Below, piece by piece: positions 4,598 through 33,581 of a stretch of 33,581 nt of DNA; the stretch's first letter is position 1; each line of letters starts with the position of its first letter. Origin of the DNA: Desulfobulbaceae bacterium (GTDB lineage: Bacteria; Desulfobacterota; Desulfobulbia; Desulfobulbales; SURF-16); contig JANTFJ010000001.1 of NCBI GenBank assembly GCA_024763495.1, forward strand, positions 1 to 33,581, read 5' to 3'. A program made the position numbers and the translations under genes. The notes under the pieces are model-generated. The model saw nothing but the letters and a program-made list of their open reading frames with translations, made no database searches and was not told the origin of the DNA.

Positions 4598-4630
4598 GGT
4601 CATCAGCACTCCAGCACTGCTGACCTTTTT
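4598..4630 (+). terminator. Candidate intrinsic terminator/attenuator between paaK and the ACT gene
   Basis: Stem ggtcatcag (4598-4606) pairs with ctgctgacc (4617-4625): 9 bp with one mismatch and a 10-nt loop, followed by TTTTT (4626-4630). Hand-folded only. Confidence 0.4.
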
Positions 4631-4695
4631 CAAAGCAGTGCCGGAGAGTATTTTTGCCTTTGGTGATCTGTTACGATATAAAAAGGAGCTTAAAA

Positions 4696-5127: not shown

Positions 5128-5139
5128 ACCGGACAAGGA

Positions 5140-5507
5140 GATAGCGCTCGATAAAGTACACCCAGGCGGCGACACCCCCTTAACGGTAAGGAATTCAGGG
5201 GCACCGACCTCCATGTGCGTGCTTCACGCCCTGCGATAATACATTGGTATATCTCAGGGTTGAAATGCGTGCGATGATACCGGAGAGGCTAAGTTATTTG
5301 TAACTGTTCAGATGTTCCTTAGATTCGAAGTCGAAGTTTATGCCCCTGTCTTGTTATGCTATCTGTTCATTCGGAGTCTCGTTCCTCGCTTACCTGTGCC
5401 TGCGCAGCATACTGGTGTTATTCAAGCAGGCTCAAATGAGCAAAGAGATAAGCACCCTCAAAAACAGGGCAGAACTCCGACTCCGTGAGGTGTCGGTGAA
5501 CGCTTAA
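5140..5507. repeat. Mosaic: family D (sense), E fragment, and inverted C/B carrying an inserted module
   Basis: D from gatagcgctcgataaagtacaccc (5140) to about 5265. gtaactgttcagatg at 5300. Inverted C/B from gttcattcggagtctcgttcctcgcttacc (about 5367) to ggtgaacgcttaa (5507), carrying the ataagcaccctcaaaaacaggg module. Confidence 0.7.
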
Positions 5508-5537
5508 AAATATTAACCATAACTAAAGGAGATAAGA

Positions 5538-6689
5538 ATGAAAAGATTTTTCACATCTACCATGCTGGCCATTGGCGCACTCTGTATGATGCTGAGTTCT
5601 GTTCCGGCTCAGGCGAGCAGTGACACCATCAAGGTCGGTGCTATCCTGGCGGTAACCGGCGGTGCTTCATTTCTCGGGGGCCCTGAATCACGTACTATTC
5701 AGATGCAGGTAGACAAAATTAACGCTGCCGGCGGTATTCACGGTAAAAAAATTGACCTTATTATTAAAGATTCCGGCGCAAACCCGGAAAAAGCCATTTC
5801 CTTTACCAAACAGCTGATCGAAGAAGAACATGTTTTTGCTATTCTCGGACCGTCCACCAGCGGCGAGACCATGAAAATAAAAAACATCTGTGAGCAGGGT
5901 AAGACTATCCTTATTTCCTGTGGCGCCGCAGAGGTTATTGTTAATCCGGTGGCAAAATATGTCTTCAAAACTCCGCAGAAAGACAGCTTCGCAGTTAAAA
6001 AGATATATAATGACATGAATGAAAAGGACATCAGGAAAATTGCGGTTCTGGCCGGGAATACCGGCTTCGGTAAGGCAGGGAAAAAACAACTGTTGACCAT
6101 TGCCCCGGAATTCGGCATCGAGGTTGTTGCCGCTGAAGTGTATGACAAAAAAGCAACTGACCTCAGCGCTGTTGTTGCCAAGTTGATGGCCAACAAGGAC
6201 ATCCAGGCCGTTGTAAACTGGTCAATTGTTCCGGCCCAGGCCATTGTTGCCAAAAATATTCGTCAGGCAGGGTGGGATGTACCTCTATACCAGAGCCATG
6301 GCTTTGGTAACATCAAATATGTTGAAGCTGCCGGAGCTGCTGCCGAGGGTATCATATTCCCGGCCGGTCGGCTGCTGGTTGCCGACGTTCTGCCTGATAG
6401 TAATGTCCAGAAGAAAATACTACTCCAGTATAAGCATGACTATGAGAACAAATTTGATGACACCGCCAGCACCTTCGGCGGCCATGGTTATGATGCAATC
6501 ATGATCCTGGCAAAAGCTGTCGAGGAGGTTGGAGCTGATAAGGAAAAAGTACGGGATGCTATTGAAAACATGAAAAATTTTATCGGAACCGGTGGTGTTT
6601 TCAATTTCTCAGCTACGGATCATAATGGCTTGGATATCGATTCCTTTGCCATGATGACTGTTAAAGACGGCAAATTCGTCCTCTACTAA
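5538..6689 (+). CDS. livK: Periplasmic substrate-binding protein, branched-chain/aromatic amino acid ABC transporter family (type I PBP)
   Basis: 383 aa with signal peptide (MLAIGALCMMLSSVPAQASS) and Leu/Ile/Val-binding-protein-like sequence. AAGGAG RBS. Substrate cannot be inferred from sequence. Confidence 0.85.
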   Translation: MKRFFTSTMLAIGALCMMLSSVPAQASSDTIKVGAILAVTGGASFLGGPESRTIQMQVDKINAAGGIHGKKIDLIIKDSGANPEKAISFTKQLIEEEHVFAILGPSTSGETMKIKNICEQGKTILISCGAAEVIVNPVAKYVFKTPQKDSFAVKKIYNDMNEKDIRKIAVLAGNTGFGKAGKKQLLTIAPEFGIEVVAAEVYDKKATDLSAVVAKLMANKDIQAVVNWSIVPAQAIVAKNIRQAGWDVPLYQSHGFGNIKYVEAAGAAAEGIIFPAGRLLVADVLPDSNVQKKILLQYKHDYENKFDDTASTFGGHGYDAIMILAKAVEEVGADKEKVRDAIENMKNFIGTGGVFNFSATDHNGLDIDSFAMMTVKDGKFVLY

Positions 6690-6728
6690 ACAATCAATAA
6701 CCGTCAGCAAAAATTAATCAACAAACCA

Positions 6729-6755
6729 GGGGACACGAACCTTTTCCGTGTCTCC
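6729..6755 (+). terminator. Hairpin after the binding-protein gene (possible partial terminator or RNA-stability element)
   Basis: ggggacacg (6729-6737) pairs with cgtgtctcc (6747-6755): 9 bp including one G-U. The T-tract is weak (tacttt). Confidence 0.25.
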
Positions 6756-6865
6756 TACTTTAAGAAGCCGGAGAGCAGATGTGATTAATCTCATCTCACT
6801 GACTCTCTTTCGCTGTTTTCAGGAGCGCCATGACCGCAAGCAGGGACAACAGAAATTTATCCTGC

Positions 6866-6903
6866 CTGATCACGGAAAGATTCGGTGCCCTGTGAGCAGT
6901 TAC
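6866..6903 (+). repeat. Solo FH right-end fragment in the livK-livH spacer
   Basis: ctgatcacggaaagattcggtgccctgtgagcagttac closely matches the right arms at 640-678, 17730-17768 and 25795-25832. Confidence 0.7.
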
Positions 6904-6950
6904 ATTCTTACTTTAATTCTGCAATCCACGTCGCATTCTAAAATCAACAA

Positions 6951-7841
6951 ATGACCGCAGAACTGTTCAGCCAATATCTTTTTGCCGGGATAACCTATGG
7001 CATTATCTATGCCATTGTTGCCATCGGTTTTAATATTATTTACAACACCACGGGCATAATTAACTTTGCTCAGGGTGAATTTGTCATGCTGGGCGGCATG
7101 ATTGCCATCAGTCTTAATACCATTATTCCTCTGGTGCCGGCCATTGCTCTAGCCGTGGTTATAACCATGATAATCGGCGCTCTAATCGAAATTATCTTTA
7201 TCCGCTGGCTGGACAACCCCTCTGTTCTGCGGATGATCATTATAACCATTGGCCTGTCAATCCTGATCCGGGAAGTTGCCCTCCATATATGGGGCGAAGG
7301 CGTCCGATCTCTGCCTTATTTTAACGGCAATGAAATCTCCTCTATTAAAATTCTGGAAGCCCAGATTTCCCCCCAGGTTCTCTGGGTTATCGGGATTTGT
7401 GGAATCATGGTCACCCTGCTCAGTATTTTTTTCCGATTTACTTCGCTCGGTCTTGATATGCGGGCCTGTTCAGCCAACAGGCTGGCCGCTACCTTATGTG
7501 GAATAAATGCCAGAAACATGGTAACTTTTTCTTTTATGCTCAGCGCGGGAATTGGAGCCCTTGCCGGTTGCGTCATGTCACCCATCACTTATACCCAGTA
7601 CGACTGCGGCACGGGTCTGGCTATCAAGGGATTTACCGTTGCTGTACTTGGTGGTCTAGGGAACAGCATGGCAGCTGTTGCCGCCGGATTGCTGCTTGGC
7701 ATTATAGAGGCCTTTAGTATTGGAGTTGTACCCCTGGCTTTTCAAGACGCGATTTCCATCAGTATTCTCTTAATCATCCTTTTTGTCCGGCCAAATGGTT
7801 TATTTGGCTGCAATGAGACTGCCAACCTTAAGGAATTCTGA
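6951..7841 (+). CDS. livH: ABC transporter permease, LivH family
   Basis: 296 aa, polytopic and hydrophobic. The N-terminus (LFAGITYGIIYAIVAIGFNIIYNTTG) resembles LivH. Stop overlaps the livM start (ATGA). Confidence 0.85.
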   Translation: MTAELFSQYLFAGITYGIIYAIVAIGFNIIYNTTGIINFAQGEFVMLGGMIAISLNTIIPLVPAIALAVVITMIIGALIEIIFIRWLDNPSVLRMIIITIGLSILIREVALHIWGEGVRSLPYFNGNEISSIKILEAQISPQVLWVIGICGIMVTLLSIFFRFTSLGLDMRACSANRLAATLCGINARNMVTFSFMLSAGIGALAGCVMSPITYTQYDCGTGLAIKGFTVAVLGGLGNSMAAVAAGLLLGIIEAFSIGVVPLAFQDAISISILLIILFVRPNGLFGCNETANLKEF

Positions 7842-8908
7842 TGACACGGCGCAACTATATTCCCATCATGCTGTTTATTACCGCAGTAATTGGAATTCAA
7901 CTGATTACCAAGTTTACTGGAACTAATTATTATCTCACCCAGCTGACCATGACCGCCTATTACTCTCTGGTAATTATCGGTCTCTGCCTGGTCATGGGTT
8001 ATGCCGGACAAATTTCCCTGGGGCACGCCGGTTTTTTTGCCATAGGCGGTTACACCTCGGCAGCCCTTACGACCTGCAACCTGACATCCCTGTTTAAAAA
8101 TGGCAACTCACTGGTCAAATTTCTATCATCCCAGGGAATGTTAATCAAAAGTCAGGATCTTTACGGTGATCCGGTACTTTATGTTAATCCCTGGCTGGCT
8201 GCCATCCTGGCTATAATGCTCACTGTAGCGATCGCCTTCCTGATCGGTATTCCTGTATTAAAGCTGAAAGGGCATTACCTGGCTATGGCTACCTTGGGTT
8301 TTGGCATTATTATATTTCGTATTGTCCTGGCTACTGAAATTTTCGGTGAGGCTGACGGAATATCCGAGGTGCCGGGTTTTACCCTGATCCCGGGAGTGAG
8401 CGTTAACGGTAATTTCGACAACAGAATTATCAACTACTATATTGCCTGCGGTATTGTAGTTATCGGGATTATTCTGCTTCTCAACCTGATAAATTCCAGG
8501 GTAGGACGGGCCCTGCGGGCCATTCATGGCGCGGAAGATGCTGCCAACGCCATGGGAATAAATACTTCTCGATACAAATTATACACATTTGTTATAAGTG
8601 CTGTATTTGCGGCTGTAGCGGGCATATTTCTCACTCATTACAATGGCGGAATCGGCCCGTCTGAGGCAGGCATAATGAAATCAATCCGTTATGTGGCTAT
8701 TGTCGCTATTGGCGGGATGGCAAATATGTGGGGAGCGCTCACTATGGGGGTTATCCTGAATTTCATGTCTCTGCGCGGTATGTTCGGTTCCTATGATGAC
8801 GCTGTCTTTGGCGCTATTTTAATTATCATAATGCTTTTTGCGCCTGAGGGTCTTTTACGCCTGGCTATCTGGCAGAAATTTTTCAAAAAAAACGATAGCG
8901 CTCAATAA
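7841..8908 (+). CDS. livM: ABC transporter permease, LivM family
   Basis: 355 aa, polytopic, LivM-like (GYAGQISLGHAGFFAIGGY). The last four codons plus the stop (DSAQ*) lie inside a family-D repeat. Confidence 0.85.
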   Translation: MTRRNYIPIMLFITAVIGIQLITKFTGTNYYLTQLTMTAYYSLVIIGLCLVMGYAGQISLGHAGFFAIGGYTSAALTTCNLTSLFKNGNSLVKFLSSQGMLIKSQDLYGDPVLYVNPWLAAILAIMLTVAIAFLIGIPVLKLKGHYLAMATLGFGIIIFRIVLATEIFGEADGISEVPGFTLIPGVSVNGNFDNRIINYYIACGIVVIGIILLLNLINSRVGRALRAIHGAEDAANAMGINTSRYKLYTFVISAVFAAVAGIFLTHYNGGIGPSEAGIMKSIRYVAIVAIGGMANMWGALTMGVILNFMSLRGMFGSYDDAVFGAILIIIMLFAPEGLLRLAIWQKFFKKNDSAQ

Positions 8909-9125
8909 AGTACACCTGGACGGCGTCAACCCCATAACTGTAAGGGATTCAAGTACATCGCCATGTGCGTGCTTGACGCCCCGCGATAACACATCAGTAT
9001 ATCACAGGGATAAAAGGCTGGCACCCATACTACGGGCATAAACTTCGCTTACTAATGCTATGTAAGACAGACTTATCGCGTGCAGGTAAGCGCAGACTCC
9101 GGATGAAGTTCAGCTGAATAGTTAC
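8894..9125. repeat. Hybrid: family D 5' part fused to an E-family right half
   Basis: gatagcgctcaataaagtacacctgg... (D) runs to about 9010. Then ggctggcacccatactacgggcataaacttcgc...cagctgaatagttac, which matches 16330-16413. Confidence 0.7.
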
Positions 9126-9140
9126 AAAGGTATCAGACTA

Positions 9141-9905
9141 ATGGCCCTGCTGGAAATAAATAACTTAAATCGTTCATTTGGTGGTCTTAAAGCGGTCAAT
9201 AATGTCAGCTTTTCTGTCCAGCCCGACACTATAAAGGCGGTCATCGGCCCTAATGGAGCCGGAAAAACGACCCTGTTTAATCTTATTTCCGGTAACTTAC
9301 CGGCTGATAATGGTAATATTTTATTTAATTCTACTTCGATCACTGACCTCAAGCCATATCAGATTGCCGGCCTGGGGATCAGCCGAACTTTTCAAAATAT
9401 CAAACTCTTTCCCGGGATGACTGCCCTGGAAAACGTAATGATAGGCCGCCATGTCAAAAGCAAGGCTGGATTCTGGGCCGGGATGCTTAACCTGCCTGCC
9501 AGTCGGCGTGAAGAAAAATCAATCACTGAAAATTCACTGGAATTGCTGGAACTGCTGGAAATTGCTCCATTTGCTCACATTGATGTCTCAAACCTGGCCT
9601 TTGGCCAGCAAAGGGCCGTAGAATTTGCCAGGGCTCTGGCCTCTGAGCCCAAACTATTGCTGCTCGATGAACCAGCAGCCGGGCTCAATATATACGAAAC
9701 AGCTGAAATTGCCCGGCTGATAACCAAAATTCAAAAAAAAGGAATCACCATTCTTCTTGTCGAGCATGACATGTCACTGGTTATGGATATTTCCGATGAA
9801 ATTGTAGTCTTATGTTTTGGCGAAAAAATTGCTGATGATCTACCGGCAGAAATTCAACAAAACCCTGAGGTGATCCAGATTTATCTGGGTGATGATAATG
9901 CTTAA
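9141..9905 (+). CDS. livG: ABC transporter ATP-binding protein, LivG family
   Basis: 254 aa with Walker A GPNGAGKTT, Walker B LLLLDEP and H-loop VEHD. Confidence 0.9.
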   Translation: MALLEINNLNRSFGGLKAVNNVSFSVQPDTIKAVIGPNGAGKTTLFNLISGNLPADNGNILFNSTSITDLKPYQIAGLGISRTFQNIKLFPGMTALENVMIGRHVKSKAGFWAGMLNLPASRREEKSITENSLELLELLEIAPFAHIDVSNLAFGQQRAVEFARALASEPKLLLLDEPAAGLNIYETAEIARLITKIQKKGITILLVEHDMSLVMDISDEIVVLCFGEKIADDLPAEIQQNPEVIQIYLGDDNA

Positions 9906-10620
9906 AATCAGAAACCTTGAAGCCGGATACGGCAAACTTCGGGTCTTAAAACGAATATCCATGCACGTTGCCGCGGGTGAAATAGTAACCATAATCGGTG
10001 CAAACGGAGCAGGTAAAACAACCCTGCTTTATACCATTGCCGGAATGATAAAAATCATGGCCGGCGATATCAACCTTTTTGATAATACTCTTGGGAAAAT
10101 AAAAGCTGAACAAATTGTTGCTCAGGGCTGCTCTCTGGTTCCTGAAGGCCGCCAGGTTTTTTCTACAATATCGGTTCAGGAAAATCTTATCCTGGGCGGC
10201 TATGTTCAGTCTAAGAAAAAAGGTTATGACAAAAAACAAGAACTTGATAAAATTTTTGATATTTTTCCGGTACTCAAGGAAAGACAGGATCAATTAGCAG
10301 GTACTCTTTCAGGTGGCGAACAACAGATGCTGGCCATGGGCCGGGCATTAATGGCAAAACCAAAACTGATTATGATGGATGAGCCATCAACAGGTTTAGC
10401 TCCCCTGATTGTTAAAGACATCTTCCAGATAATTCATCGCCTGCGTAAGGGCGGCAATACTGTTTTACTGGTCGAACAAAATGCCCGGGCTGCTTTGGCC
10501 ATTGCTGATCGCGGTTATGTTCTCGAAACCGGGAAAATAATTCTCCAGGGGCCGGCTGATGATTTGCTGGATAATTGCGATGTTCAGAGAGCCTACCTGG
10601 GACGAGATGTAGGCAAATAA
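9898..10620 (+). CDS. livF: ABC transporter ATP-binding protein, LivF family
   Basis: Walker A GANGAGKTT, signature LSGGEQQ, Walker B IMMDEP. Start ambiguous (GTG 9889, ATG 9892, ATG 9898); 9898 gives the usual MLKIRNL N-terminus and overlaps the livG stop. Confidence 0.9.
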   Translation: MLKIRNLEAGYGKLRVLKRISMHVAAGEIVTIIGANGAGKTTLLYTIAGMIKIMAGDINLFDNTLGKIKAEQIVAQGCSLVPEGRQVFSTISVQENLILGGYVQSKKKGYDKKQELDKIFDIFPVLKERQDQLAGTLSGGEQQMLAMGRALMAKPKLIMMDEPSTGLAPLIVKDIFQIIHRLRKGGNTVLLVEQNARAALAIADRGYVLETGKIILQGPADDLLDNCDVQRAYLGRDVGK

Positions 10621-10623
10621 CTT

Positions 10624-10889
10624 GTAACTACTCATGGGGTAAGCGCCTTAACTTCGCTAACCCCGGTAATTGGTAAGCGTAGACTCCGTTCGGTGCCCTG
10701 TAACCAGTTACAAATACTGAGATTTGCAATCATTAGTCCCTTAGAAATTATTTTCGTGTTATTTATGGCAAGAAATCTAAAATTTTCTTTGAAATAAACA
10801 ATCTGCATCTACTGTTAAGGGACTTATCCAGAACCTTAATTTCTTTTCCAGTTTATCTGGGCTAGGTACTTACCCCCATGAGTAGTTAC
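10624..10889. mobile_element. Composite MITE filling the livF-paaK2 spacer
   Basis: About 22-bp terminal inverted repeats, gtaactactcatggggtaag and cttacccccatgagtagttac. Contains an FH unit (10624-10711) plus a passenger of about 155 bp that recurs inverted at about 25546-25735. No clear target duplication found. Confidence 0.7.
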
Positions 10890-10907
10890 TGATAAAGGAG
10901 ACATATA

Positions 10908-12206
10908 ATGTACTGGGAAAAAGATAAAGAATGCATGGCCCGGGACGATCTTGAACAACTGCAACTTGAAAGATTACAGGCAACATTGTACAGGGTAACT
11001 ACTAATGTCCCTTTTTATAGAAAAAAATTCAGGGAGCTGCAAATAGACCCGGATGGATTCAGCTCCCTTGAAGAACTGCAGGGACTTCCCTTTACCACCA
11101 AGGATGATCTACGAAAAAATTATCCCTACGGTCTTTTTGCCGTACCCCTCAGAGATATTGTCCGGGTTCATTCATCTTCCGGGACTACCGGCACGGCAAC
11201 GGTTGTCGGCTACACCAAAAATGATATTAAAACATGGTCAAACATGACAGCCAGGGTATTGACTGCTGCCGGAGTAGGCAAGGACGATGTAGTACAGATT
11301 GCTTTTGGTTATGGTCTGTTTACCGGCGGATTCGGACTGCATTACGGAGCTGAAAGGATCGGAGCTTCGGTCATCCCTATTTCCAGTGGAAATACAAAAC
11401 GCCAGATCCAGATCATGCAGGATTTCAAAACAACCGCCCTGGTCTGCACCCCAAGTTATGGACTTCTCCTGGCTGACACCATGCAGGAAATGGACATAAA
11501 CATTAATGCTCTCGATTTACGTTTCGGACTTTTTGGCGGTGAACCATGGTCGGAGGGAATGCGGGAAGAAATCCAGAACAAACTACATATTCAGGCCACT
11601 GACAACTATGGCTTAAGTGAAGTCATGGGTCCGGGCGTAGCCGGTGAATGCCGGGAACGCCAGGGACTACATATTAATGAAGACCATTTCTTAATTGAAA
11701 TTATTAATCCCGACTCTCTGGAGCCGGCCAAACCCGGAGAAATTGGTGAAGTTGTCATTACTACCCTGACCAAGGAAGCCTTTCCGGTTATTCGCTACCG
11801 GACAAGAGACCTGACCAGAATTATTGAAGCCCCCTGTGCCTGTGGTCGCACCCTGCGTCGAATGGAGCGGGTTCTGGGCCGCACTGATGATATGTTAATA
11901 ATCAAGGGGGTAAATGTTTATCCGATGCAGATTGAAGCAGTTCTTTTTGACATTGAAGGAACAGAGCCGCATTATCAGATAGTTGTTGAAAGAGATGGCC
12001 GCCTGGACAAAATAACCGTCATGGTTGAAGTAGTTGAAGAAATATTCTTTGACCAGATGAAAAAACAACGACAGTTAGTTGATCACATCAAGAAAAGGCT
12101 GGCAGGCGAACTTGGTATTGGCATTGAAGTAAAACTGGTAGAAGAAAAGAGCCTGGAAAGATATGAGGGTAAATCCCAGCGGGTGCTTGACAAACGCAAG
12201 TTGTAA
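10908..12206 (+). CDS. paaK: Phenylacetate-CoA ligase family, second paralog
   Basis: 432 aa, colinear with 3289-4590 (roughly half to 60% identical by eye). Same SSGTTG, YGLSE and [15 protein letters not shown] motifs. AAAGGAG RBS. Confidence 0.85.
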
Positions 12207-12214
12207 AAAAAATC

Positions 12215-12337
12215 GACAGCGCTCAACAAAATACACCCGGGGCGGCGACAAGCCCATACCTGTAAAGGGGTTCAGGAACTCCGCCATGTAGGTACTCCAT
12301 GCAATACATCGGTATATCGCAGGGTTGAAGCGCGTAC
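12215..12337 (+). mobile_element. Family D MITE, sense to paaK2
   Basis: Ends gacagcgctc and gaagcgcgtac. Flanks AAAAAATC (12207-14) and ATAAAATC (12338-45) match 7/8. Starts 8 nt after the paaK2 stop. Confidence 0.7.
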
Positions 12338-12361
12338 ATAAAATCGCTCTTCTAAATATTC

Positions 12362-12685
12362 GTAAGTGTTCGCCAGCACCTCATCTTTGCCCATTTGAGC
12401 CTGCTTGAATAGCACGAGTATGCTACGCAGGCACAAATGGTAATTACTCACGGGGTAAGCACCTTAAGTTCGCTACCACCCGTAATTGTAACTGTTTACA
12501 GGATGCCGGAGATAGTCCGGTGCCGCGTATTAGTCATACGTAAACCGGGCTGATGGCGGAAAGAGGTAAGCGCAGACTCCGTTCGGTAACCTGTGAGCAG
12601 TTACCACAAATGAACAAATCTAAGGCACTGATAAAAGCTTAGAAACTTAAATGTTGCAATGATTTGCTCCCTGATGAACGGTTAC
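12362..12685 (+). mobile_element. C/B-family MITE (outer element of a nested pair)
   Basis: TIRs gtaagtgttcgccag and ctgatgaacggttac. Flanks AAATATTC (12354-61) and AAATATTG (12686-93) match 7/8. Interrupted by the element at 12440-12604. Confidence 0.85.
12440..12604 (+). mobile_element. FH-family MITE nested inside the C/B element
   Basis: Ends gtaattactcacggggtaagc and cctgtgagcagttac. Perfect 8-bp duplication CACAAATG (12432-39 and 12605-12). Confidence 0.9.
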
Positions 12686-12813
12686 AAATATTGAAATTAC
12701 GCCTTAGAATGCGAAGTTATTTTTGAGTGAACCCTTAGATCAAATCCAACTATTCGGGAACACTTGATGAGTAGGAAAATCTTCCGCACCTGTCATCGCT
12801 CAAAAGCAAGGTG

Positions 12814-13191
12814 CTAATTATCTTCATTATCCTCTTGGTAATTGACTAATTCTATAATCGCCATGGGCGCAGCATCGCCGGTACGGTTACCAGTTCTTAT
12901 TATTCTGGTATACCCACCATTACGATCCATATAACTATCTTTAATTTCATCAAAAAGCTTAGCTACTATTCTCTTATCCTGTATATATGATAATGCCTGA
13001 CGTCGAGCATGAAGATCTCCACGCTTAGCTAAAGTTATCATTTTATCAGCTACCCGCCGCAACTCCTTTGCCTTAGGTGTAGTAGTAACAATCCGCTCAT
13101 GCTCGAACAGGGACGTAACCATATTACGAAGCATGGCCCTTTTATGTGATGTTGTACGGCCAAGTCTTTTTCCTGCTACTCTATGCCTCAT
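12814..13191 (-). CDS. rplQ: 50S ribosomal protein L17
   Basis: 125 aa, [24 protein letters not shown]... Last gene of the alpha operon. Confidence 0.95.
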
Positions 13192-13208
13192 CTTTCCTAA
13201 ACCTCGCT

Positions 13209-14282
13209 TTATTCCTGCTCTTCTGTAGACGGAACTTCAGGTGGTTCCCAATTATCAAGTTTGAGCCCCAGATTCAAATCCATTTCCGCAAGAAGTTGTT
13301 TTATTTCGTTCAAGGACTTACGACCAAAATTTTTGGTTTTAAGCATTTCAGCTTCAGTCTTCTGTACTAATTCACCAATAAACCTGATATCAGCGTTACG
13401 AAGGCAGTTTGCGGAACGAACAGAAAGTTCAAGATCTTCAACGCCCCGGTAAAGATTTTCATTAAAAGTCTCTTTCTCTACTGTATCCGGGATGACGACT
13501 TCAGGCTCAATAAGGTTCTCATCAAAATTAATAAAAATTGTCAGCTGTTCCTTCAGTATTTTAGCGGCAAAGGCCAAGGCATCTTCAGGCTTGACACTTC
13601 CATCAGTATATATTTCCAGAATTAATTTATCATAATCAGTCTGTTGTCCAACCCGGGCTTGACTGACAGTTGATTTAACCTGTTTAACTGGAGCAAAAGT
13701 TGCGTCAATAGGAATAACCCCAACCGGCAAATCATCACTTTTATGCTTCTCTGCCGGAGAATAACCTTTACCCCACTGAACCTCAAGTTCTGCAACAAAA
13801 CTACCTTCACTGCCGGTAATAGTACAAATATGCTGCTCAGGGTTCATAATCTCGACAGAAGAACCCGTAATTATATCAGCAGCAGTAACTGAACCTGGTT
13901 TTGTTTTATTAATCTGAACTATCTTTGAATCAGCACCGTTAAGTTTTAATCGTACCTCTTTAAGATTAAGGATAATTTCTGTAACATCTTCAAGAACACC
14001 TGATAATGTAGAAAATTCGTGTAAAGCATTGTCAATCTTAACCGAAGTAATTGCCGCACCCTGTATTGAAGAAATCAATATTCTCCGCAGACAATTTCCT
14101 AAAGTAGTAGCATACCCACGCTCTAATGGCTGACATACGAATTTACCATATTTTTCACTATGTTTTTCAGAATCAACCTCAACTCTCTCAGGGACGATAA
14201 GTTCTCGCCAATTGCGATAAAAAGGGGAACCTTCTTCTATTAGTGACTCCTGAGTCATATTTTCTATACTATCGTTCATCAA
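13209..14282 (-). CDS. rpoA: DNA-directed RNA polymerase alpha subunit
   Basis: N-terminal-domain motif [29 protein letters not shown] and C-terminal-domain motif [23 protein letters not shown]. True start may be the internal ATG at 14258. Confidence 0.93.
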
Positions 14283-14285
14283 ATC

Positions 14286-14915
14286 CTACTTGGAGTAAAG
14301 TTCAACAATCAACTGCTCTTGGATCGGCATGGTTATTTCCTGGCGATCAGGAAGAGACTTGACTGTAGCTTTATAATTATCTTGATCAAGTTCCAGCCAG
14401 GATGGAACACCACGGCGGGCAACAGCAGCAAGGCTTTCGTTAATTACCCCGATTTTACGACTTTTTTCCTTTAGAGTAATAACATCATTAACTGATATTT
14501 GAAAAGAAGGAATATTAACTTTTCTTCCATTGACCAGAAAATGATTATGTTTAATCATCTGTCTTGCCTGACTCCTCGAATTTAAAAATCCAAGGCGATA
14601 AAGAGTATTATCAAAGCGTCTTTCAAGCAATTGCAAAAGATTTTCGCCAGTTACACCCTTATGCATCTCAGCTCTTTCAAAATATTTCCTGAACTGGCCT
14701 TCAAGCATACCATAAATTCTTCTGACCTTCTGCTTCTCACGTAACTGAATCGCATAATCAGATACCTTACGCATTCTTGCCTGGCCATGCTGACCGGGAG
14801 CAAATGAACGTCGCTCAAAGGCACACTTGTCAGAATAACATCTGTCACCTTTAAGAAACAATTTAAGTTTTTCCCTGCGGCATTGTCTACAAACGGCTCC
14901 TCTATATCTTGCCAA
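14286..14915 (-). CDS. rpsD: 30S ribosomal protein S4
   Basis: 209 aa, [26 protein letters not shown]... TTG start with GGAGGAG RBS. Confidence 0.95.
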
Positions 14916-14973
14916 TTTGCTCCTCCATTATACACATGCAGTATATATTACATAGTACTTGATAAAAATAATT

Positions 14974-15096
14974 ACAACTATTCTGCTGCATCTCATCTTC
15001 GTCCATTTGGGCCTGCTCAAGTAGCATCAGTACATTTCGCTGCCCTGAATAAACAGATAGCAAAACTTCGTGCCTACGGTACATCTGAATAGATAC
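14974..15096. repeat. Degenerate MITE relic in the rpsK-rpsD spacer
   Basis: Decayed E-like ends acaactattctgctgca and acatctgaatagatac. The interior (catctcatcttcgtccatttgggcctgctcaagtagca) resembles C/B. No duplication detected. Confidence 0.45.
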
Positions 15097-15144
15097 AAAA
15101 CAGTAAGTCTACCAGTTTTTTTTCGTCCCTACGGAATCAAATAA

Positions 15145-15534
15145 TTAAACTCTTCTTCTTTTCGGCGGTTTACAGCCATTATGAGGCATAGGAGTGACGT
15201 CACATATACGGCTCACATCAATACCTGACGTCTGAATGGCACGAATTGCGGCCTCTCGACCCGGCCCAGGCCCCTTTACCATAACCTCAACTTTTCTCAA
15301 ACCCTGATCCATGGCTCGTTTTGAAGCATCCTCAACTGCGTTTTGAGCAGCAAAAGGAGTACTTTTTCTTGATCCCTTAAAACCAAGAGAGCCGGCACTG
15401 GACCAAGCTATAACATTACCCTGCTTATCAGAAAATGTAATAAGGGTATTATTAAATGTAGACTTAATATGAGCTATACCTTCGGGTATATTTTTCTTAA
15501 TTTTACGCTTTGTCCGCAACTTAGGTTTTGCCAT
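15145..15534 (-). CDS. rpsK: 30S ribosomal protein S11
   Basis: 129 aa; [18 protein letters not shown]...[13 protein letters not shown]. Confidence 0.95.
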
Positions 15535-15592
15535 CTTATTTTCACCCTATCACAATTTTATCGACCGATAGTCTGCCAACGATAAATCAATC

Positions 15593-15764
15593 GTAACTAT
15601 TCAGCTGCAATTCATACGGTCACGATCAGGTTGTCTCACATAGCACCGGCATGCTGTGTGCCCGTCAGATCACGAAAATCTTCAGCACCCTGCAACCACT
15701 TACAAATGCAGCGGGTTGCATACATTTAGGCGCTTACCTCATGAATAGTTACAAAAATAGTTAC
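15593..15764. repeat. Hybrid-ended MITE in the rpsM-rpsK spacer
   Basis: E-type left end gtaactattcagctgc, FH-arm-like interior, inverted FH left end gcgcttacctcatgaatagttac. The terminal 12-mer atagttacaaaa is tandemly duplicated (15745-15768). Confidence 0.6.
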
Positions 15765-15769
15765 AAAAA

Positions 15770-16138
15770 CTATTTCCTTTTTACTGCTGCACCACGACGG
15801 GGACCTTTTCTTGTCCGAGCATTGGTCTTGGTTCGCTGACCATGGCAGGGTAGACTACGACGATGTCGAATGCCTCTATAACATCCTAAATCCATCAATC
15901 TTTTAATATCCATACCAACTTCTCGCCGCCTATCACCCTCTACTGAATATTTTTCATCTATAATATTTCGTATCCGAGCAATATCCTGATCTGTAAGCTC
16001 ATCACTGCTTGTCTCATATTTAAGCTCAGCCTCTTCAAGAATCTTTCGGGAAGTAGTGCGACCGATACCATAAATGTAAGTGAGAGCAATTTCTATATGT
16101 TTATTTTTAGGCAAATCTACTCCAGCTATACGTGCCAA
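15770..16138 (-). CDS. rpsM: 30S ribosomal protein S13
   Basis: 122 aa, [26 protein letters not shown]... Confidence 0.95.
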
Positions 16139-16239
16139 GTTATTCCTCCCATAAGAATTCTAATGGCTGAGGCATCAAGTAAAAACATAAAATAAGACAC
16201 ATGGTAATTACCGTTTTCACTTGCGACCTTAATTAAAAC

Positions 16240-16413
16240 GTAACTATTCACGTAGGGGCGAAAAACTGCCCAAACCACCGACCTGTAACTGTTCAGATGT
16301 GCTTTAGCTGTGCATGATAAGGCTGGCACCCATACTACGGGCATAAACTTCGCATACTAATGCTATGTAAGACAGACTTATCGCGTGCAGATGAAGTGCA
16401 GCTGATTAGTTAC
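16240..16413 (+). mobile_element. E-family MITE
   Basis: Ends gtaactattcacgtagg and gtgcagctgattagttac. Flanks ATTAAAAC (16232-39) and ATTAAAAA (16414-21) match 7/8. Relatives at 17985-18162 and, inverted, at about 33179-33353. Confidence 0.8.
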
Positions 16414-16515
16414 ATTAAAAATTACTTTAGTGCTTTACTACAGAATATTCGTCAAAAAAACAACAAAATTAAAAAAATTTATAACTATTAAAGATAGGGG
16501 TGAAAGAAAAGCCCT

Positions 16516-16803
16516 GCTGAACGATTACTAACAGTTCAATGTGCTTTATCAATTGTCCATTCAGGCTGGCGCAACATACTAGGAGGCTGTCCGAGAATGC
16601 CCTTTTACCCCAACTCTGTGTTATTTTGAAAAAATAATGCTCGCAATATCAACTATATGGCTGTGCTTATTTTTGCAAAATGCCTTGATTTGAGAAAAAA
16701 TGTCTATTCTAAGTCAAAATCACCGGCAAAATTGAAACAACGGTGAATCCCTTACAGTTACAGAGTAGTCACAGCCTGGGGGTGTAGATTATTGAGTAAT
16801 GTC
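16516..16803. repeat. Mosaic: E fragment, family G copy, and truncated family D (sense to rpmJ)
   Basis: 16516-16580 is E-interior-like. 16581-16712 is a G copy (aggaggctgtccgagaat...ctattct). 16741-16803 read on the - strand gives gacattactcaataatctacaccc...taactgtaagggattca, which is the D 5' part, starting 2 nt after the rpmJ stop. Confidence 0.55.
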
Positions 16804-16805
16804 TT

Positions 16806-16919
16806 TCAACCCTGCCGTTGTTTATGTTTCTTTATCTTACAGGTAACGCGAATCACTCCTTTACGTTTAAACACCCGGCAATCACTGCATATTTTCTTTA
16901 CAGATGAACGTACCTTCAT
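16806..16919 (-). CDS. rpmJ: 50S ribosomal protein L36 (zinc-binding C-x2-C...C...H form)
   Basis: Found by hand below the ORF-track cutoff. Reverse complement reads [41 protein letters not shown] is present about 9 nt upstream. Position between infA and rpsM is as expected. Confidence 0.9.
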
Positions 16920-16934
16920 AATATAATCCTGATT

Positions 16935-17084
16935 ATAACTACTGACTGGGGTAAGCGCCTTAATTGCGCTAAACACCGTAATTGTAACTGGTTACAGGTG
17001 CCGTAGGCTTTAGCCCGGCTCAACATATTAATCATACGTGAGCCGAACTGATCACGGAATGATCTGGTGTCCTGTAAGCAGTTA
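16935..17084 (+). mobile_element. FH-family MITE in the infA-rpmJ spacer
   Basis: Ends ataactactgactggggtaagcgcc and gtgtcctgtaagcagttac. Perfect duplication TCCTGATT (16927-34 and 17085-92). Confidence 0.9.
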
Positions 17085-17113
17085 CTCCTGATTGACATTT
17101 TAATTTAAAGTAA

Positions 17114-17341
17114 CTACTTCCTTCCACGAGAACGAAAAGTTATTCTTCCCCTGGTCAAATCATATGGCGACAACTCAACTGTTACTTGATCGCCAGGAAG
17201 AATTTTAATAAAATGCATTCTCATTTTACCTGAGATATGAGCCAAAACTTTATGACCATTTTCAAGTTCAACTCGGAACATCGCATTAGGCAATGGTTCT
17301 ATAATTTTTCCTTCTACCTGAATGGCATCTTCTTTTGGCAT
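17114..17341 (-). CDS. infA: Translation initiation factor IF-1
   Basis: 75 aa, [51 protein letters not shown]... AAGGAAGG RBS. Confidence 0.95.
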
Positions 17342-17645
17342 ATCTTTTATTAGTCCTTCCTTTTTAAACGATTATCGTTTTTGTGATATAAATTTAATAA
17401 GGTTAAAGAGACTATCCCTTTAGTCCGTTAAATCTCGTATCAACCTTTAACTCGAACACTAAGCAAAATTAACAATTTGTAAATTAAAGAATTTTATCTT
17501 ATAACCTATTTTTACTATTTCTGCTTTTGTTTTTTTCTAACTATTCAACTTAAAGAAAAATGACGAAAAGCTGGATACATATACCTGGCGAGGATGTACG
17601 AACAAAGCTTAACTACAACAAAATCAGGCAAATTGAACCATTTAT

Positions 17646-30626: not shown

Positions 30627-30917
30627 CTAAATTTCTTCCAGAAAATCTACACTATGACCCTCAACCAGAGAGACAATAGCCTTTTTCCAATCCGATCTCC
30701 GACCAGCATAACGCCCCAGCCGTTTTTTCTTACCATGCATATTAGCAGTCCGGACTTTTATTACTTCTACATTAAACAACGCCTCAACAGCCTGTTTAAT
30801 CTCAATCTTATTAGCTCTAGGATCAACCTTAAAAACCAGATGGTTGTATTCTTCCTGAAGAGTCATGCCCTTTTCAGTCAAGCATGGTTTTTTTATTATC
30901 CCATAAATAGATTTCAT
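30627..30917 (-). CDS. rplW: 50S ribosomal protein L23
   Basis: 96 aa; IIKKPCLTEKGMTLQEEYNHLVFKVDPRANKIEIKQAVE. 4-nt overlap with rplD. Confidence 0.95.
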   Translation of the reverse strand: MKSIYGIIKKPCLTEKGMTLQEEYNHLVFKVDPRANKIEIKQAVEALFNVEVIKVRTANMHGKKKRLGRYAGRRSDWKKAIVSLVEGHSVDFLEEI

Positions 30918-31537
30918 GGCTGCAACCTCTCTTCAATTTTATCCAGACTAGGCTGAACTATAATCAATTTCTTATACAGCAGGATATCATAAACATTAAT
31001 ACCAATTACAGGAAGAACCTTATATCCCGGGACATTACGTGATGACCTTTCAAGTTTTTCGTCATGTTCCGGAACAACAATCAGGCAATTCTCAACTTTG
31101 AGATTATCCATAATATCAACAAATTTTCTGGTCTTAAATTCCTCAAGTTGAATTTCGTCAATTATGAGAATATTATCAGCTGAATTACGTGAACTCAGTG
31201 CCATACGCAATCCAATCCTTCTGACTTTCTTAGGAAGATTGAAACTGTAGTCACGGGGTTTAGGGCCAAAAACAGTTCCACCGCCCCGCCACACAGGTGA
31301 CCTTCTATTTCCCGCTCTTGCTCGTCCGGTACCTTTTTGCCGATATGGCTTTGCGCCGCTACCTCTAACTTCTGCTCTAGTCTTGGTACAGGCTGATCCC
31401 TGTCGCCGCTTAGCCAACTGCATGCGCACCACATCATGAAGCAAGTGAGAATCAACATCAACCCCAAAGATTGAATCTTGCAAATCTATCTCACCAACCT
31501 TTTCGTTACTGGTGTTATAAATATTGGTCATTGCCAT
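30914..31537 (-). CDS. rplD: 50S ribosomal protein L4
   Basis: 207 aa from ATG 31537 (GAGGGG about 8 nt upstream), [19 protein letters not shown]... The 20-codon extension in the ORF track runs into a family-D repeat. Confidence 0.92.
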
Positions 31538-31575
31538 TTTTCGGCCCCTCACAATTATGGCCTGTTTGGTATTTT

Positions 31576-31714
31576 GTAAGCGCTCGATGAACATCACCCT
31601 GCGATGTACCGATGTATTATCGCAGGCCGTGAAGCATGTACATAACAGCGTCCCTGAACCCCTTACAGTTATGGGTAGTTGTCGACGCTTGGGTGTACTT
31701 TATTGAACACTATC
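31576..31714 (-). mobile_element. Family D MITE, sense to the rplC-rplD transcript
   Basis: Ends gtaagcgctcgatgaac and ctttattgaacactatc. Flanks GGTATTTT (31568-75) and AGTATGTT (31715-22) match 6/8. Lies 38 nt upstream of the rplD ATG. Confidence 0.7.
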
Positions 31715-31882
31715 AGTATGTTAACTCACTAACACACTAAGGTGAAGAAACTATCAGACTTTTCAGGACTCTTTTATACTCCTTTCTCTACTAATCTATT
31801 TTTAAGTGAGCCCTTATATAATATATCCTGAGTTTCTTATTTTGGACTGAAATTCAAACGTAAGATACTAATGTAGAAACTA

Positions 31883-32512
31883 TTACTTTGTATAAATAGT
31901 CAGCATCCCTTGTTTTGCTCCGGGAACCCCGCCTTTAACCAGAATAACATTATCCTGTTCCCTGATATCAAGGATGATAACATTTTTTTTGGTTACATTA
32001 TTATTACCCATACGGCCAGGCATTTTTTTACCTTTGATAACCCTGCTTGGCCAGGCGCTGCAACCTATCGATCCCGGAGCCCGGTGAAACATGGAGCCAT
32101 GAGTTTTCCTACCGCCATGGAAACCATGACGCTTAATAACACCCTGGAATCCACGTCCCTTTGTTATGCCGGTAATATCAACTATATCGCCGACCTTAAA
32201 CAAATCAGTTAGAACTATCTCCTGACCAATTTCATATTGTTCAGGATCATCAACCCGGAACTCCCTGACATGGTAAAAACCACCCTTACCTGCTTTATTA
32301 AAATGGCCAAGCATAGGCTTGTTAATACGCGACTCTTTTTTTGAGGCAAATCCAACCTGAACAGCTTTATAGCCGTCATTTTCATCAGTTTTTTTCTGCA
32401 GCACTATACATGGACCGGCCTCAATGACCGTAACTCCGAATGCTGATCCTTCCTCAGAATAAAACCGGGTCATTCCAATTTTTTTCCCCAATATTCCAAT
32501 AGTCTTAGGCAT
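31883..32512 (-). CDS. rplC: 50S ribosomal protein L3
   Basis: 209 aa, MPKTIGILGKKIGMTRFYSEEG... Confidence 0.95.
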   Translation of the reverse strand: MPKTIGILGKKIGMTRFYSEEGSAFGVTVIEAGPCIVLQKKTDENDGYKAVQVGFASKKESRINKPMLGHFNKAGKGGFYHVREFRVDDPEQYEIGQEIVLTDLFKVGDIVDITGITKGRGFQGVIKRHGFHGGRKTHGSMFHRAPGSIGCSAWPSRVIKGKKMPGRMGNNNVTKKNVIILDIREQDNVILVKGGVPGAKQGMLTIYTK

Positions 32513-32603
32513 TGTTTAACCCAACCTCTGTAAATTCTTAAAAATTTCAATTCAGCTCTTTGCTCCGTCAAAAATTTAACGGAGTTCAAAGCGTTTCTTC
32601 GTG

Positions 32604-32915
32604 TTACAGCTTGATCTCTACATCAACTCCTGCTGAAAGTTCAAGTTTCATTAAGGCATCGATTGTCTGTTGAGTAGGTTCGAGAATATCCAGCATGCGA
32701 CGATGCGTTCTCATCTCAAACTGCTCCCTTGATTTTTTATCAACGTGAGGAGAACGAAGAACACAATATTTATTAATCTTAGTGGGCAACGGAATCGGTC
32801 CCGCAATAATAGCACCAGTCTGTTTAGCTGTCTCAACAATCTCTGCTGTTGACAAATCTATCTGCTTATGATCGTACCCTCTCAATTTGATACGAATTTT
32901 CTGCGTCTGAATCAT
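32604..32915 (-). CDS. rpsJ: 30S ribosomal protein S10
   Basis: 103 aa from ATG 32915 (AAGGA about 8 nt upstream), [22 protein letters not shown]... The 22-codon extension in the ORF track is repeat-derived. Confidence 0.93.
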
Positions 32916-32929
32916 GTAATTTTCCTTTT

Positions 32930-32950
32930 GTAACCGTTCACCGGGCCGAC
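32930..32950 (-). repeat. Solo C/B end fragment 15 nt upstream of the rpsJ start
   Basis: gtaaccgttcaccgggccgac matches the left end of the inverted C/B copy at 28783. Confidence 0.5.
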
Positions 32951-32959
32951 ATATTTTTT

Positions 32960-33114
32960 GTAAGCGCTCCATGAACACCAACCTGCACGGGCTTCACAAC
33001 CCCTGCAATATACCGATGTATTATCACAGGGCATGGAGTACGTATATGGCGGCATCACTGAACCCCTTATAGTTAGGGGTTGTCGCCTCCTGGATGTACT
33101 TTAGAGCGCTACCC
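32960..33114 (-). mobile_element. Family D MITE, sense to the tuf-rpsJ transcript
   Basis: Ends gtaagcgctccatgaac and ctttagagcgctaccc. Perfect duplication TATTTTTT (32952-59 and 33115-22), although the sequence is low complexity. Confidence 0.8.
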
Positions 33115-33131
33115 TATTTTTTAAAATTAAT

Positions 33132-33353
33132 GTAACTACTCATGGGGTAAGCACCTAATGATTGCAAATCTAACTATTTATAACTATCCAGCTGCACTTC
33201 ATCTGGGGGCGATAATGCTGTCTTATATAGCATTCTGCGCCAGGCTTATCACACACATCTAAAGCACACGGAGTCTCACTTCGTTCGCTTAACTCTGAAT
33301 AATTACTAAACAGTGGTTGTGACAGTTTTTCGCCCCCGACCTGAATCGGTAAT
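33132..33353. repeat. Hybrid: FH left end fused to an inverted E-family element
   Basis: gtaactactcatggggtaagcacctaatgattgcaaatc..., then ataactatccagctgcacttcatctg...cagtttttcgcccccgacctgaatcggtaat. The second part is colinear with the reverse complement of 16240-16413. Confidence 0.6.
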
Positions 33354-33484
33354 AAAAAATTATAAACATTGCCTGCAAGTGTTTACCGGCATTTCAAATA
33401 TGTTTATTTTAATCGTTAAGACATAAATCCCATATACTGGAATGTCAAAATGGACGATAATTGATACAGGCAGACACTTACGGC

Positions 33485-33581
33485 CTATTCAACAATCTCG
33501 TTGATAACGCCGGCGCCGACTGTTCTGCCGCCCTCACGAATTGCAAAACGTAAGCCTTCTTCCATGGCAATAGGGGTTATC
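33485..33581 (-). CDS. tuf: Elongation factor Tu, C-terminal 31 codons (5' part outside the window)
   Basis: Reverse complement reads [31 protein letters not shown]. Position upstream of rpsJ is as expected. Confidence 0.85.

What the first reader, a model, noticed from the sequence alone, without database searches (positions are those of the whole stretch)
31576..31714. Family D is always in sense orientation to the local transcript and sits close behind stop codons
All six D copies or fragments point the same way relative to transcription, even though the genes are on opposite strands. Copies at 5140, 8894 and 12215 are + in the + operon. Copies at 16741-16803, 31576-31714 and 32960-33114 are - in the - operon. 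By contrast, C/B and FH occur in both orientations within the - operon (26944 versus 28783; 29400 versus 24194). Four D copies begin 0-13 nt from the preceding stop codon (ACT gene, livM, paaK2, rpmJ). D contains a conserved stem, ccctgcgata / tatcgcaggg, around the loop atacatYgg. In the 32960 copy the two changed stem positions read as G-U and U-G in the sense RNA but would be A-C mismatches on the other strand. Six of six has a chance probability of about 0.03, so it is suggestive only. Possible causes are RNA-level selection (a 3' stabiliser, processing site or attenuator), orientation-specific toxicity, or a biased insertion mechanism.
Basis: partly seen in the sequence, partly recalled or inferred. 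Interest (0 to 1): 0.6.

Follow-up and report, generated by a model that had tools for sequence, protein, structure and literature searches.

The report
Small jumping-DNA repeat, same-way orientation unproven
Family D is an ordinary small non-coding jumping element (an IS66-type MITE) that recently invaded the gaps between genes of one hydrothermal-vent Desulfobulbaceae bacterium; its six copies here do all point along the genes, but six copies are too few to prove a rule, and its hairpin shows no sign of being kept for the messenger RNA.

Summary
The window, which is a whole contig, has exactly six family-D copies: 5140+, 8894+, 12215+, 16741- (a fragment), 31576- and 32960-. All are co-oriented with the neighbouring genes. 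Four start 0-12 nt from, or on, the upstream stop codon.

D is a MITE. It has imperfect terminal inverted repeats (GATAGCGCTC... / ...GAGCGCTTAC, whose reverse complement is the IS66-type tip GTAAGCG) and 8-bp A-rich target duplications. Close relatives (SecY 94-99% identical) have empty sites. The source metagenome holds roughly 150-300 copy-equivalents.

The RNA reading is not supported:
- The hairpin has no compensatory changes.
- Four stem changes are wobbles only on the antisense strand, against two on the sense strand.
- The antisense strand folds more stably in 4 of 5 copies.
- Two of the six copies lack the hairpin.
- No U-tract follows it.

Other MITE families in the window have mixed orientation. 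Six of six for one family among four is therefore about p = 0.12. Closeness to stop codons follows from short ancestral spacers (19-72 nt) and A-run targets.

The decisive genome-wide census could not be run.

The parts
5140..5277 (+). D copy between the ACT-domain gene and livK, starting 12 nt after the ACT stop. The hairpin lies at 5229-5259. The right end is degenerate, with no clean terminal repeat.
   Evidence: nhmmer E = 3.7e-43; alignment; the relative L013 has a 72-nt spacer without D.
8894..9012 (+). D copy inserted in the last codons of livM. Its left end supplies DSAQ and the stop codon. The hairpin lies at 8979-9009. The right end is cut off by another MITE that starts at 9014.
   Evidence: nhmmer E = 2e-38; in L013 livM ends ...KKIL* and is followed by a 19-nt spacer to livG.
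12207..12345 (+). D copy (12215-12337) with its 8-bp target duplications AAAAAATC (12207-12214) and ATAAAATC (12338-12345). The left duplication abuts the paaK2 stop codon. The 5' arm of the hairpin has been deleted.
16741..16803 (-). Fragment holding the left 63 nt of D, 2 nt after the rpmJ stop. It has no hairpin.
   Evidence: nhmmer E = 4e-13. It is absent from the 99%-SecY relative L010 and from L008, whose rpmJ-rpsM spacer is 58 nt.
31568..31722 (-). Full long-form D copy (31576-31714) between rplC and rplD. Its flanking octamers are AACATACT (31715-31722) and AAAATACC (31568-31575), read on the D strand. The hairpin lies at 31597-31626. The right tip reads GTAAGCGCTCGATGAACA on the + strand.
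   Evidence: The empty site in L007 aligns exactly up to the CTTAC end, with target AAAATAAT.
32952..33122 (-). Full long-form D copy (32960-33114) in the tuf-rpsJ leader, with a perfect 8-bp duplication AAAAAATA on both sides. The hairpin lies at 33001-33031.

Best explanation
**What D is.** Family D is a non-autonomous transposon (MITE) of the IS66 type, 120-155 bp long. Its left end is GATAGCGCTCAATAAAGTACACC. Its right end is ...GAGCGCTTAC, whose reverse complement is GTAAGCGCTC.

**How it moves (inferred).** It is most likely moved in trans by an IS66-family transposase. It inserts with an 8-bp duplication, here into A-rich octamers of the form AAAAAAWN.

**When it spread.** It expanded recently in one hydrothermal-vent Desulfobulbaceae lineage.

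**The hairpin.** The conserved hairpin is part of the element's own palindromic build. It is not a host RNA signal.

**Closeness to stop codons.** This has three ordinary causes. The ancestral spacers were only 19-72 nt long. A-runs are common at and just after stop codons. Insertions nearer the next gene's ribosome-binding site are removed by selection.

**Orientation.** That all six copies in this contig point along transcription is most likely a small-sample outcome, possibly helped by mild selection on orientation. It is not evidence for a function of the sense RNA.

**Shown:** repeat family, ends, duplications, empty sites in relatives, copy number, lack of covariation.
**Inferred:** the IS66 transposase as the mover, survivorship, and chance as the cause of six of six.
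For: **Family and ends**
- There are six homologous copies and no others.
- The two ends match at about 15 of 23 positions as an inverted repeat.
- The right tip GTAAGCGCTC matches the published IS66 tip GTAAGCGTCCGG... (PMC12888890).

**Target duplications**
- 8 of 8 (AAAAAATA) at copy 32960.
- 7 of 8 at copy 12215.
- 6 of 8 at copy 31576.

**Empty sites in relatives**
- About 70 kb of close relatives carry no D: L007, L008-L010, L011 and L013.
- The orthologous sites are empty and the spacers short.

**Distribution and copy number**
- Pattern scans of GTDB genomes, JGI metagenomes and IMG/VR returned only chance hits or none.
- In run X1, summed depth on D is 8,000-17,500 against a unique depth of 54, which is about 150-300 copy-equivalents.

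**No support for a sense-RNA hairpin**
- No covariation in the hairpin.
- Stem changes favour the antisense strand four to two.
- In the metagenome, about 33 copy-equivalents carry antisense-only wobbles against about 11 with sense-only wobbles.
- Antisense minimum free energy is lower in 4 of 5 copies.
- No terminator-like site lies on the sense strand of D.

**Orientation of other families**
- C/B is 3 sense to 4 antisense, FH is 2 to 3, and E is mixed.
Against: - Six of six, with 5 of 5 in unambiguous spacers, is still nominally p = 0.03-0.06. I could not enlarge the sample, so a real bias is not excluded.
- Four of six copies have the same (left) end within 12 nt of a stop codon. This is more regular than simple survivorship predicts.
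- The left tip is consistently GATAGCG rather than the canonical GTAAGCG. The ends are therefore asymmetric, and an orientation-aware mechanism is conceivable.
- No autonomous IS66 copy with matching ends was seen, because the genome was unavailable.
Confidence: 0.55

Rival explanations
1. The orientation bias is real and comes from purifying selection. D inserts in both orientations. Inside operons the antisense orientation is harmful and is lost, for example because the reverse complement of the asymmetric left module carries a weak stem followed by ACTTTATTGA, or some other polar signal. Only sense copies survive between co-transcribed genes.
For: - All five copies in co-directional spacers are sense.
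- Terminator-like matches fall on the antisense strand of D's left end in two copies: 8926-8912 (-) and 33073-33093 (+).
- Orientation-dependent effects of co-transcribed MITEs on mRNA are documented for ERIC elements in Yersinia (PMC2229807).
Against: - The terminator-like hits are weak: 5-7 pairs and 5 T in 8 bases. Their number matches what shuffled sequence gives.
- Other IS66-type MITE families in the same operons sit in both orientations.
- Base composition is nearly symmetric, with C/G about 1.
- The sample is only six copies.
Confidence: 0.22
2. Insertion is polar with respect to an asymmetric target. D's left end joins 3' of an A-run on the same strand. A-runs are about three times commoner on the mRNA-sense strand, often at or just after stop codons and in Lys-rich C-termini. 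This target rule alone would give both the sense orientation and the closeness to stop codons.
For: - Four of four readable target octamers are A-rich on D's own strand: AAAAAATC, AAAAAATA, AAAATACC and AAAAAAAC.
- Runs of six or more A occur 63 times on the sense strand against 22 times on the antisense strand in the window. The skew is similar in most relatives.
- D's two tips differ, GATAGCG against GTAAGCG.
Against: - If D is sense for any reason, A-rich targets on its strand are already expected with probability about 0.75 to the fourth power, or 0.3. The polarity is therefore not independent evidence.
- Consensus flanks of other D left ends in the metagenome show no A-run (table 7). They are low-agreement consensus sequences.
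- From general knowledge, DDE transposases usually show symmetric target preferences and random orientation.
Confidence: 0.13
3. The D hairpin works in the sense transcript as a 3' stabiliser, processing site or attenuator, and selection for that RNA keeps D in sense orientation behind genes.
For: - All six copies are in sense orientation and four lie just behind stop codons.
- The two stem changes in copy 32960 are G-U wobbles in the sense RNA.
- REP, ERIC and Correia elements provide precedents (PMC2229807, PMC3184786).
Against: - There are no compensatory pairs in the hairpin.
- Copies 8894 and 31576 carry four changes that break the sense hairpin but are wobbles on the antisense strand. 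Metagenome copies show the same trend.
- Two of the six copies have lost the hairpin.
- The hairpin is a near-perfect palindrome and would form in either orientation.
- No U-tract follows it.
- The antisense fold is more stable in 4 of 5 copies.
- Two copies lie next to the start of the downstream gene, not behind a stop codon.
Confidence: 0.05

Closest known systems
IS66-family insertion sequences and their MITE derivatives
   Same: - The terminal inverted repeat starts GTAAGCG at D's right end. Compare ISPsk01, whose repeat is GTAAGCGTCCGG... (PMC12888890).
- It makes 8-bp target duplications.
- It co-occurs with other GTAA-tipped MITE families (C/B, FH, E) in the same spacers.
   Different: - D has no transposase genes and is only 120-155 bp.
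- The left tip is consistently GATAGCG, with TA swapped to AT.
- A conserved 13-bp subterminal hairpin is present.
- Targets are A-rich.
- The cognate autonomous element was not seen.
ERIC/IRU elements of enterobacteria, as studied in Yersinia by De Gregorio et al. 2005 and reviewed in PMC2229807
   Same: - Both are MITEs of about 130 bp with terminal repeats, lying between co-transcribed genes.
- Both fold into stem-loops.
- For ERIC, orientation is known to matter for the stability of the neighbouring mRNA.
   Different: - There is no sequence similarity.
- ERIC duplicates TA, not 8 bp.
- For D there are no expression data and no strand-specific conservation.
REP/BIME and Correia (NEMIS) elements
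   Same: They are abundant intergenic palindromic repeats that are co-transcribed with genes. Their hairpins can stabilise or process mRNA.
   Different: - REPs are 20-40 bp and are moved by RAYT (Y1) transposases.
- Correia elements have 26-bp terminal repeats, TA duplications and RNase III sites.
- D has IS66-type ends and 8-bp duplications, and Rfam has no match for it.

Membership tests
IS66-type MITE | Terminal inverted repeats starting GTAAGCG | tested here: met
   The right end reads GTAAGCGCTC(C/G)ATGAACA on the opposite strand in the two complete copies. The left end is the variant GATAGCGCTC. The two ends match at about 15 of 23 positions. The published IS66 repeat is GTAAGCGTCCGG....
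IS66-type MITE | 8-bp target-site duplication | tested here: met
   AAAAAATA on both sides, 8 of 8, at copy 32960. AAAAAATC and ATAAAATC, 7 of 8, at copy 12215. AACATACT and AAAATACC, 6 of 8, at copy 31576. The other three copies are truncated or decayed.
IS66-type MITE | Insertion polymorphism, meaning empty orthologous sites in relatives | tested here: met
   Relatives L007, L008, L010, L011 and L013 lack D at all sites examined. The right junction of copy 31576 aligns exactly with the L007 empty site.
IS66-type MITE | Many dispersed non-coding copies | tested here: met
   Six copies lie in 33.6 kb. Run X1 holds about 150-300 copy-equivalents. Frameshifts between copies exclude a conserved ORF.
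IS66-type MITE | A cognate autonomous IS66 element (tnpA-tnpB-tnpC) with matching ends in the same genome | not testable with these tools
The source genome is not in the searchable collections.
Structured cis-RNA element acting in the sense transcript (REP/ERIC-like stabiliser or processing site) | Base pairing kept by compensatory or strand-specific (G-U) changes on the transcribed strand | tested here: not met
   - None of the 12 hairpin pairs changes on both sides.
- The covariation term is +2.3.
- Wobble-only changes favour the antisense strand four to two, and about 33 to 11 copy-equivalents in the metagenome.
Structured cis-RNA element acting in the sense transcript (REP/ERIC-like stabiliser or processing site) | Consistent orientation relative to transcription, genome-wide | tested here: inconclusive
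   Six of six in the window, which is about p = 0.12 family-wise given the mixed orientation of the other families. No further copies with gene context could be retrieved.
Structured cis-RNA element acting in the sense transcript (REP/ERIC-like stabiliser or processing site) | Transcript ends or cleavage at the element | not testable with these tools
   No RNA run holds this organism.
Intrinsic (Rho-independent) terminator | GC-rich hairpin immediately followed by a U-tract on the transcribed strand | tested here: not met
   On the sense strand the hairpin is followed by TTGAAGCGC or TGATGTTCA. The scan reports no terminator-like site on the sense strand of any D copy.

The most novel reading that the evidence does not exclude
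Family D might be oriented along transcription genome-wide, by one of two routes. In the first, integration is coupled to an asymmetric A-run target or to transcription itself. That would be new for a transposon with IS66-type inverted-repeat ends. In the second, strong selection acts on the asymmetric left module inside operons. Either way D would be a natural marker of transcript direction and of the tolerated insertion window just behind stop codons.
Probability: 0.2. Interest if true: 0.55.

Novelty: new member of a known kind. Interest (0 to 1): 0.25.

Why it matters
If the orientation rule held genome-wide, it would show that an IS66-type MITE either senses target polarity or is strongly filtered by operon transcription. 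It would also give a handle on how essential operons, here the S10/spc ribosomal operons, tolerate massive MITE invasion.

As it stands, the finding documents a new, lineage-restricted IS66-type MITE family. It also supplies a cautionary example: one copy's G-U pairs and six co-oriented copies looked like RNA-level selection but do not survive checking.

Tried and rejected

2. **Pattern scans for D.**
   - GTDB genome contigs: no hits for the two-module pattern, and three chance hits for the hairpin pattern.
   - JGI metagenome contigs: two chance hits that lie in coding sequence.
   - IMG/VR: none.
   - Plasmids by blastn: none.
   - So the source genome is not in these collections and D is lineage-restricted.

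3. **Reaching D copies through spurious ORFs.** I searched with a profile of antisense-frame D peptides. It found only two NCBI ORFs, P0001 and P0002. Neither has a retrievable locus. P0002 is a chimera of C/B, D and FH repeats.

4. **Earlier notes by sequence:** nothing.

5. **RNA-seq runs for 3'-end mapping:** none.

7. **Empty alleles inside the vent population.** At 97% likeness or more, no contig skips a D copy in runs from 2017 or 2022. At 90% or more, none skips copies 31576 or 32960.

8. **Mutational strand asymmetry as a proxy for transcription direction.** C>T exceeds G>A on D's antisense strand in one segment and on its sense strand in another. This is inconclusive, confounded by base composition and subfamily structure.

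9. **Other orientation-specific features.**
   - Stop codons: both orientations give early stops in two of three frames.
   - Rho-site-like composition: C/G is about 1.
   - Sigma-70-like promoter hits on D are weak (9 of 12) and are not shared between copies.

10. **Rfam:** no match in the window.

Full report
**Observation**

The window is a whole 33,581-base contig; the protein index lists its longest contig as 33,581. It comes from a Desulfobulbaceae bacterium found in hydrothermal-vent metagenomes.

Genes on the + strand run from 798 to 12206: an iorA-like oxidoreductase, paaK1, an ACT-domain gene, livK, livH, livM, livG, livF and paaK2. From 12814 to the end, the alpha, spc and S10 ribosomal operons and tuf lie on the - strand.

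An alignment and an nhmmer profile search confirm six family-D copies and no others:
- 5140 (+)
- 8894 (+)
- 12215 (+)
- 16741-16803 (-), left 63 nt only
- 31576-31714 (-)
- 32960-33114 (-)

Every copy points the same way as its neighbouring genes. Five lie between co-directional genes. D12215 lies in the convergent paaK2/rplQ spacer.

Four copies start close to the upstream stop codon. The gap is 12 nt after the ACT gene, 8 nt after paaK2 and 2 nt after rpmJ. At livM the stop codon lies inside D. The other two copies lie 38 and 44 nt upstream of the rplD and rpsJ start codons, far from the preceding stops.

**What D is**

- **Ends.** The left end reads GATAGCGCTCAATAAAGTACACC. The complete copies end ...TTCAT(C/G)GAGCGCTTAC. 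The reverse complement of that end, GTAAGCGCTC(C/G)ATGAACA, carries the GTAAGCG tip of IS66-family inverted repeats, such as ISPsk01 GTAAGCGTCCGG... (PMC12888890).
- **Target duplications.** The flanking octamers match 8 of 8 at copy 32960 (AAAAAATA), 7 of 8 at copy 12215 (AAAAAATC / ATAAAATC) and 6 of 8 at copy 31576 (AACATACT / AAAATACC).
- **Relatives lack D.** I fetched close relatives through SecY and LivM homologues. They are L010 (SecY 99% identical), L008 and L009 (96%), L007 (94%), and L011 and L013 (LivM 86-87%; L013 is fully syntenic). None carries D in about 70 kb.
- **Empty sites with short spacers.** Their orthologous spacers are short: livM-livG 19 nt, ACT-livK 72 nt, rpmJ-rpsM 58 nt and rplC-rplD 121 nt. 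The L007 empty site aligns exactly up to D31576's CTTAC end, at the octamer AAAATAAT.
- **D8894 is inside livM.** It went into the last two codons of livM. The ancestral end ...KKIL* became ...KKNDSAQ*, with the stop supplied by D.
- **Copy number.** In the best metagenome run, the unique parts of the contig have depth 54. D's left end sums to about 8,000 and its hairpin to 10,000-17,500, which is about 150-300 copy-equivalents.
- **Distribution.** Strict pattern scans of 185,579 GTDB genomes, JGI metagenomes and IMG/VR found no D copy.

D is therefore a recently expanded, lineage-restricted IS66-type MITE. It lives alongside the GTAA-tipped families C/B, FH and E already noted for this contig.

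**The hairpin and the RNA reading**

- The hairpin is CCCTGCGAT-A-ATAC [ATYG] GTAT-ATCGCAGGG: 13 pairs, one bulge and a 4-nt loop.
- On the five alignable copies, RNAalifold gives an unfavourable covariation term of +2.3 kcal/mol.
- In the hairpin helix, 7 of 12 pairs never vary, one varies on one side, none varies on both sides, and four depart only by broken pairs.
- For the whole predicted fold, three double changes are seen against 1.4 expected; 69 of 500 shuffles do as well.
- Copy by copy:
  - D32960 has two changes that are G-U wobbles in the sense RNA.
  - D8894 has three changes, and D31576 one, that break the sense hairpin and are wobbles only on the antisense strand.
  - D5140 and D31576 each have one mismatch on both strands.
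  - D12215 has lost the 5' arm, and D16741 has no hairpin.
- Among the metagenome copies, stem transitions that are wobbles on the antisense strand occur at four sites, about 33 copy-equivalents. Those that are wobbles on the sense strand occur at two sites, about 11 copy-equivalents. These are not independent events.
- The antisense strand has the lower minimum free energy in 4 of 5 copies.
- No U-tract follows the hairpin, and no terminator-like site lies on D's sense strand.
- A near-perfect palindrome forms in either orientation, so it cannot explain an orientation preference.

**Orientation statistics**

Six of six is p = 0.031 two-sided. Counting only the five unambiguous copies gives 0.0625.

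The other families in the same window are mixed relative to transcription: C/B three sense to four antisense, FH two to three, and E mixed. Picking the one uniform family out of four gives a family-wise probability of about 0.12.

I could not enlarge the sample:
- The D-derived ORFs found in NCBI records had no retrievable loci.
- Logan contigs break inside the repeats and cannot be fetched by DNA.
- No RNA runs exist.

**Why close to stop codons**

The ancestral spacers were 19-72 nt long, so any surviving insertion lies near a stop codon. The part next to the following gene holds its ribosome-binding site.

The readable targets are A-runs: AAAAAATC abutting the paaK2 TAA, AAAAAAAC in the Lys-Lys-Asn codons of livM, AAAAAATA, and AAAATAAT.

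Runs of six or more A are three times commoner on the sense strand than on the antisense strand (63 against 22). If D's asymmetric ends read that polarity, both the sense orientation and the closeness to stop codons would follow without any RNA function. The polarity evidence is not independent of the orientation itself, so I rank this as a rival at about 0.13.

Purifying selection against antisense copies inside operons is the other live rival, at about 0.22. Its only sequence support is a weak stem followed by ACTTTATTGA on the antisense strand of D's left end in two copies, at chance frequency.

**Comparison with known elements**

The closest known relatives are the IS66-family elements and their MITE derivatives. 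D meets the tip, 8-bp duplication, insertion-polymorphism and multicopy criteria. The cognate autonomous element was not testable.

REP and Correia hairpins are further precedents (PMC3184786). D shares no sequence with these and matches no Rfam family.

**Verdict**

D is a new member of a known kind, an IS66-type MITE. The sense-RNA hairpin reading is not supported. The orientation regularity remains a weak, untested lead that a genome-wide census would settle quickly.

Noticed in passing
window 32960-32990: The 30-nt right tip of D (GTAAGCGCTCCATGAACACCAACCTGCACG) has a summed contig depth of about 99,500 in run X1, against 54 for unique sequence. That is about 1,800 copy-equivalents, 6-12 times more than the body of D. 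The tip must be shared with a much larger element family or with the autonomous IS. In the window only the two long-form D copies carry it.
   Followed up: partly
window 8886-8908, compared with L013 4140-4196: D8894 replaced the last two codons of livM. The syntenic relative ends ...KKIL* and has a 19-nt spacer to livG. Here the protein ends ...KKNDSAQ*, with the stop codon supplied by the repeat.
   Followed up: yes
window 16139-16805, compared with L010 7046-7688 and L008 6747-6806: The rpmJ-rpsM spacer is 58 nt in a 96%-SecY relative. It is about 640-670 nt both here and in a 99%-SecY relative, but the first 75-125 nt after the rpmJ stop differ. The D fragment is here and unrelated sequence is there. 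Repeat content turns over between near-identical strains.
   Followed up: partly
all D copies, antisense strand, e.g. window 31524-31706 (+): The D consensus has a fully open antisense reading frame (...YTDVLSQGVKHVHGGVPESLTVMGLSPPGCTLLSAI). At least two 'hypothetical proteins' in NCBI records are translations of D and neighbouring MITEs: P0001 (104 aa) and P0002 (69 aa, a C/B-D-FH chimera). They are likely spurious gene calls.
   Followed up: partly
window, all intergenic regions: Intergenic DNA makes up 9,972 of 33,581 bases (30%). Of that, 4,497 bases match another intergenic stretch of the same contig. Syntenic relatives have spacers of tens of bases.
   Followed up: partly
window 8912-8926 (-) and 33073-33093 (+): A weak terminator-like motif lies on the antisense strand of D's left end in two copies: a short stem followed by ACTTTATTGA or ATGTACTTTA. 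The overall counts match shuffled sequence.
   Followed up: no
window 4600-17200 and 30900-33500 in runs X1-X4: Contigs from samples taken in 2017 and 2022 match the window without any D-less allele. The six insertions seem fixed in this vent population over five years.
   Followed up: partly
window 6903 joined to 8894, elsewhere in the metagenome: One X1 contig joins the ...CAGTTAC tip of another MITE directly to a D left end. D therefore also sits immediately against other MITEs elsewhere in the genome (table 5).
   Followed up: no
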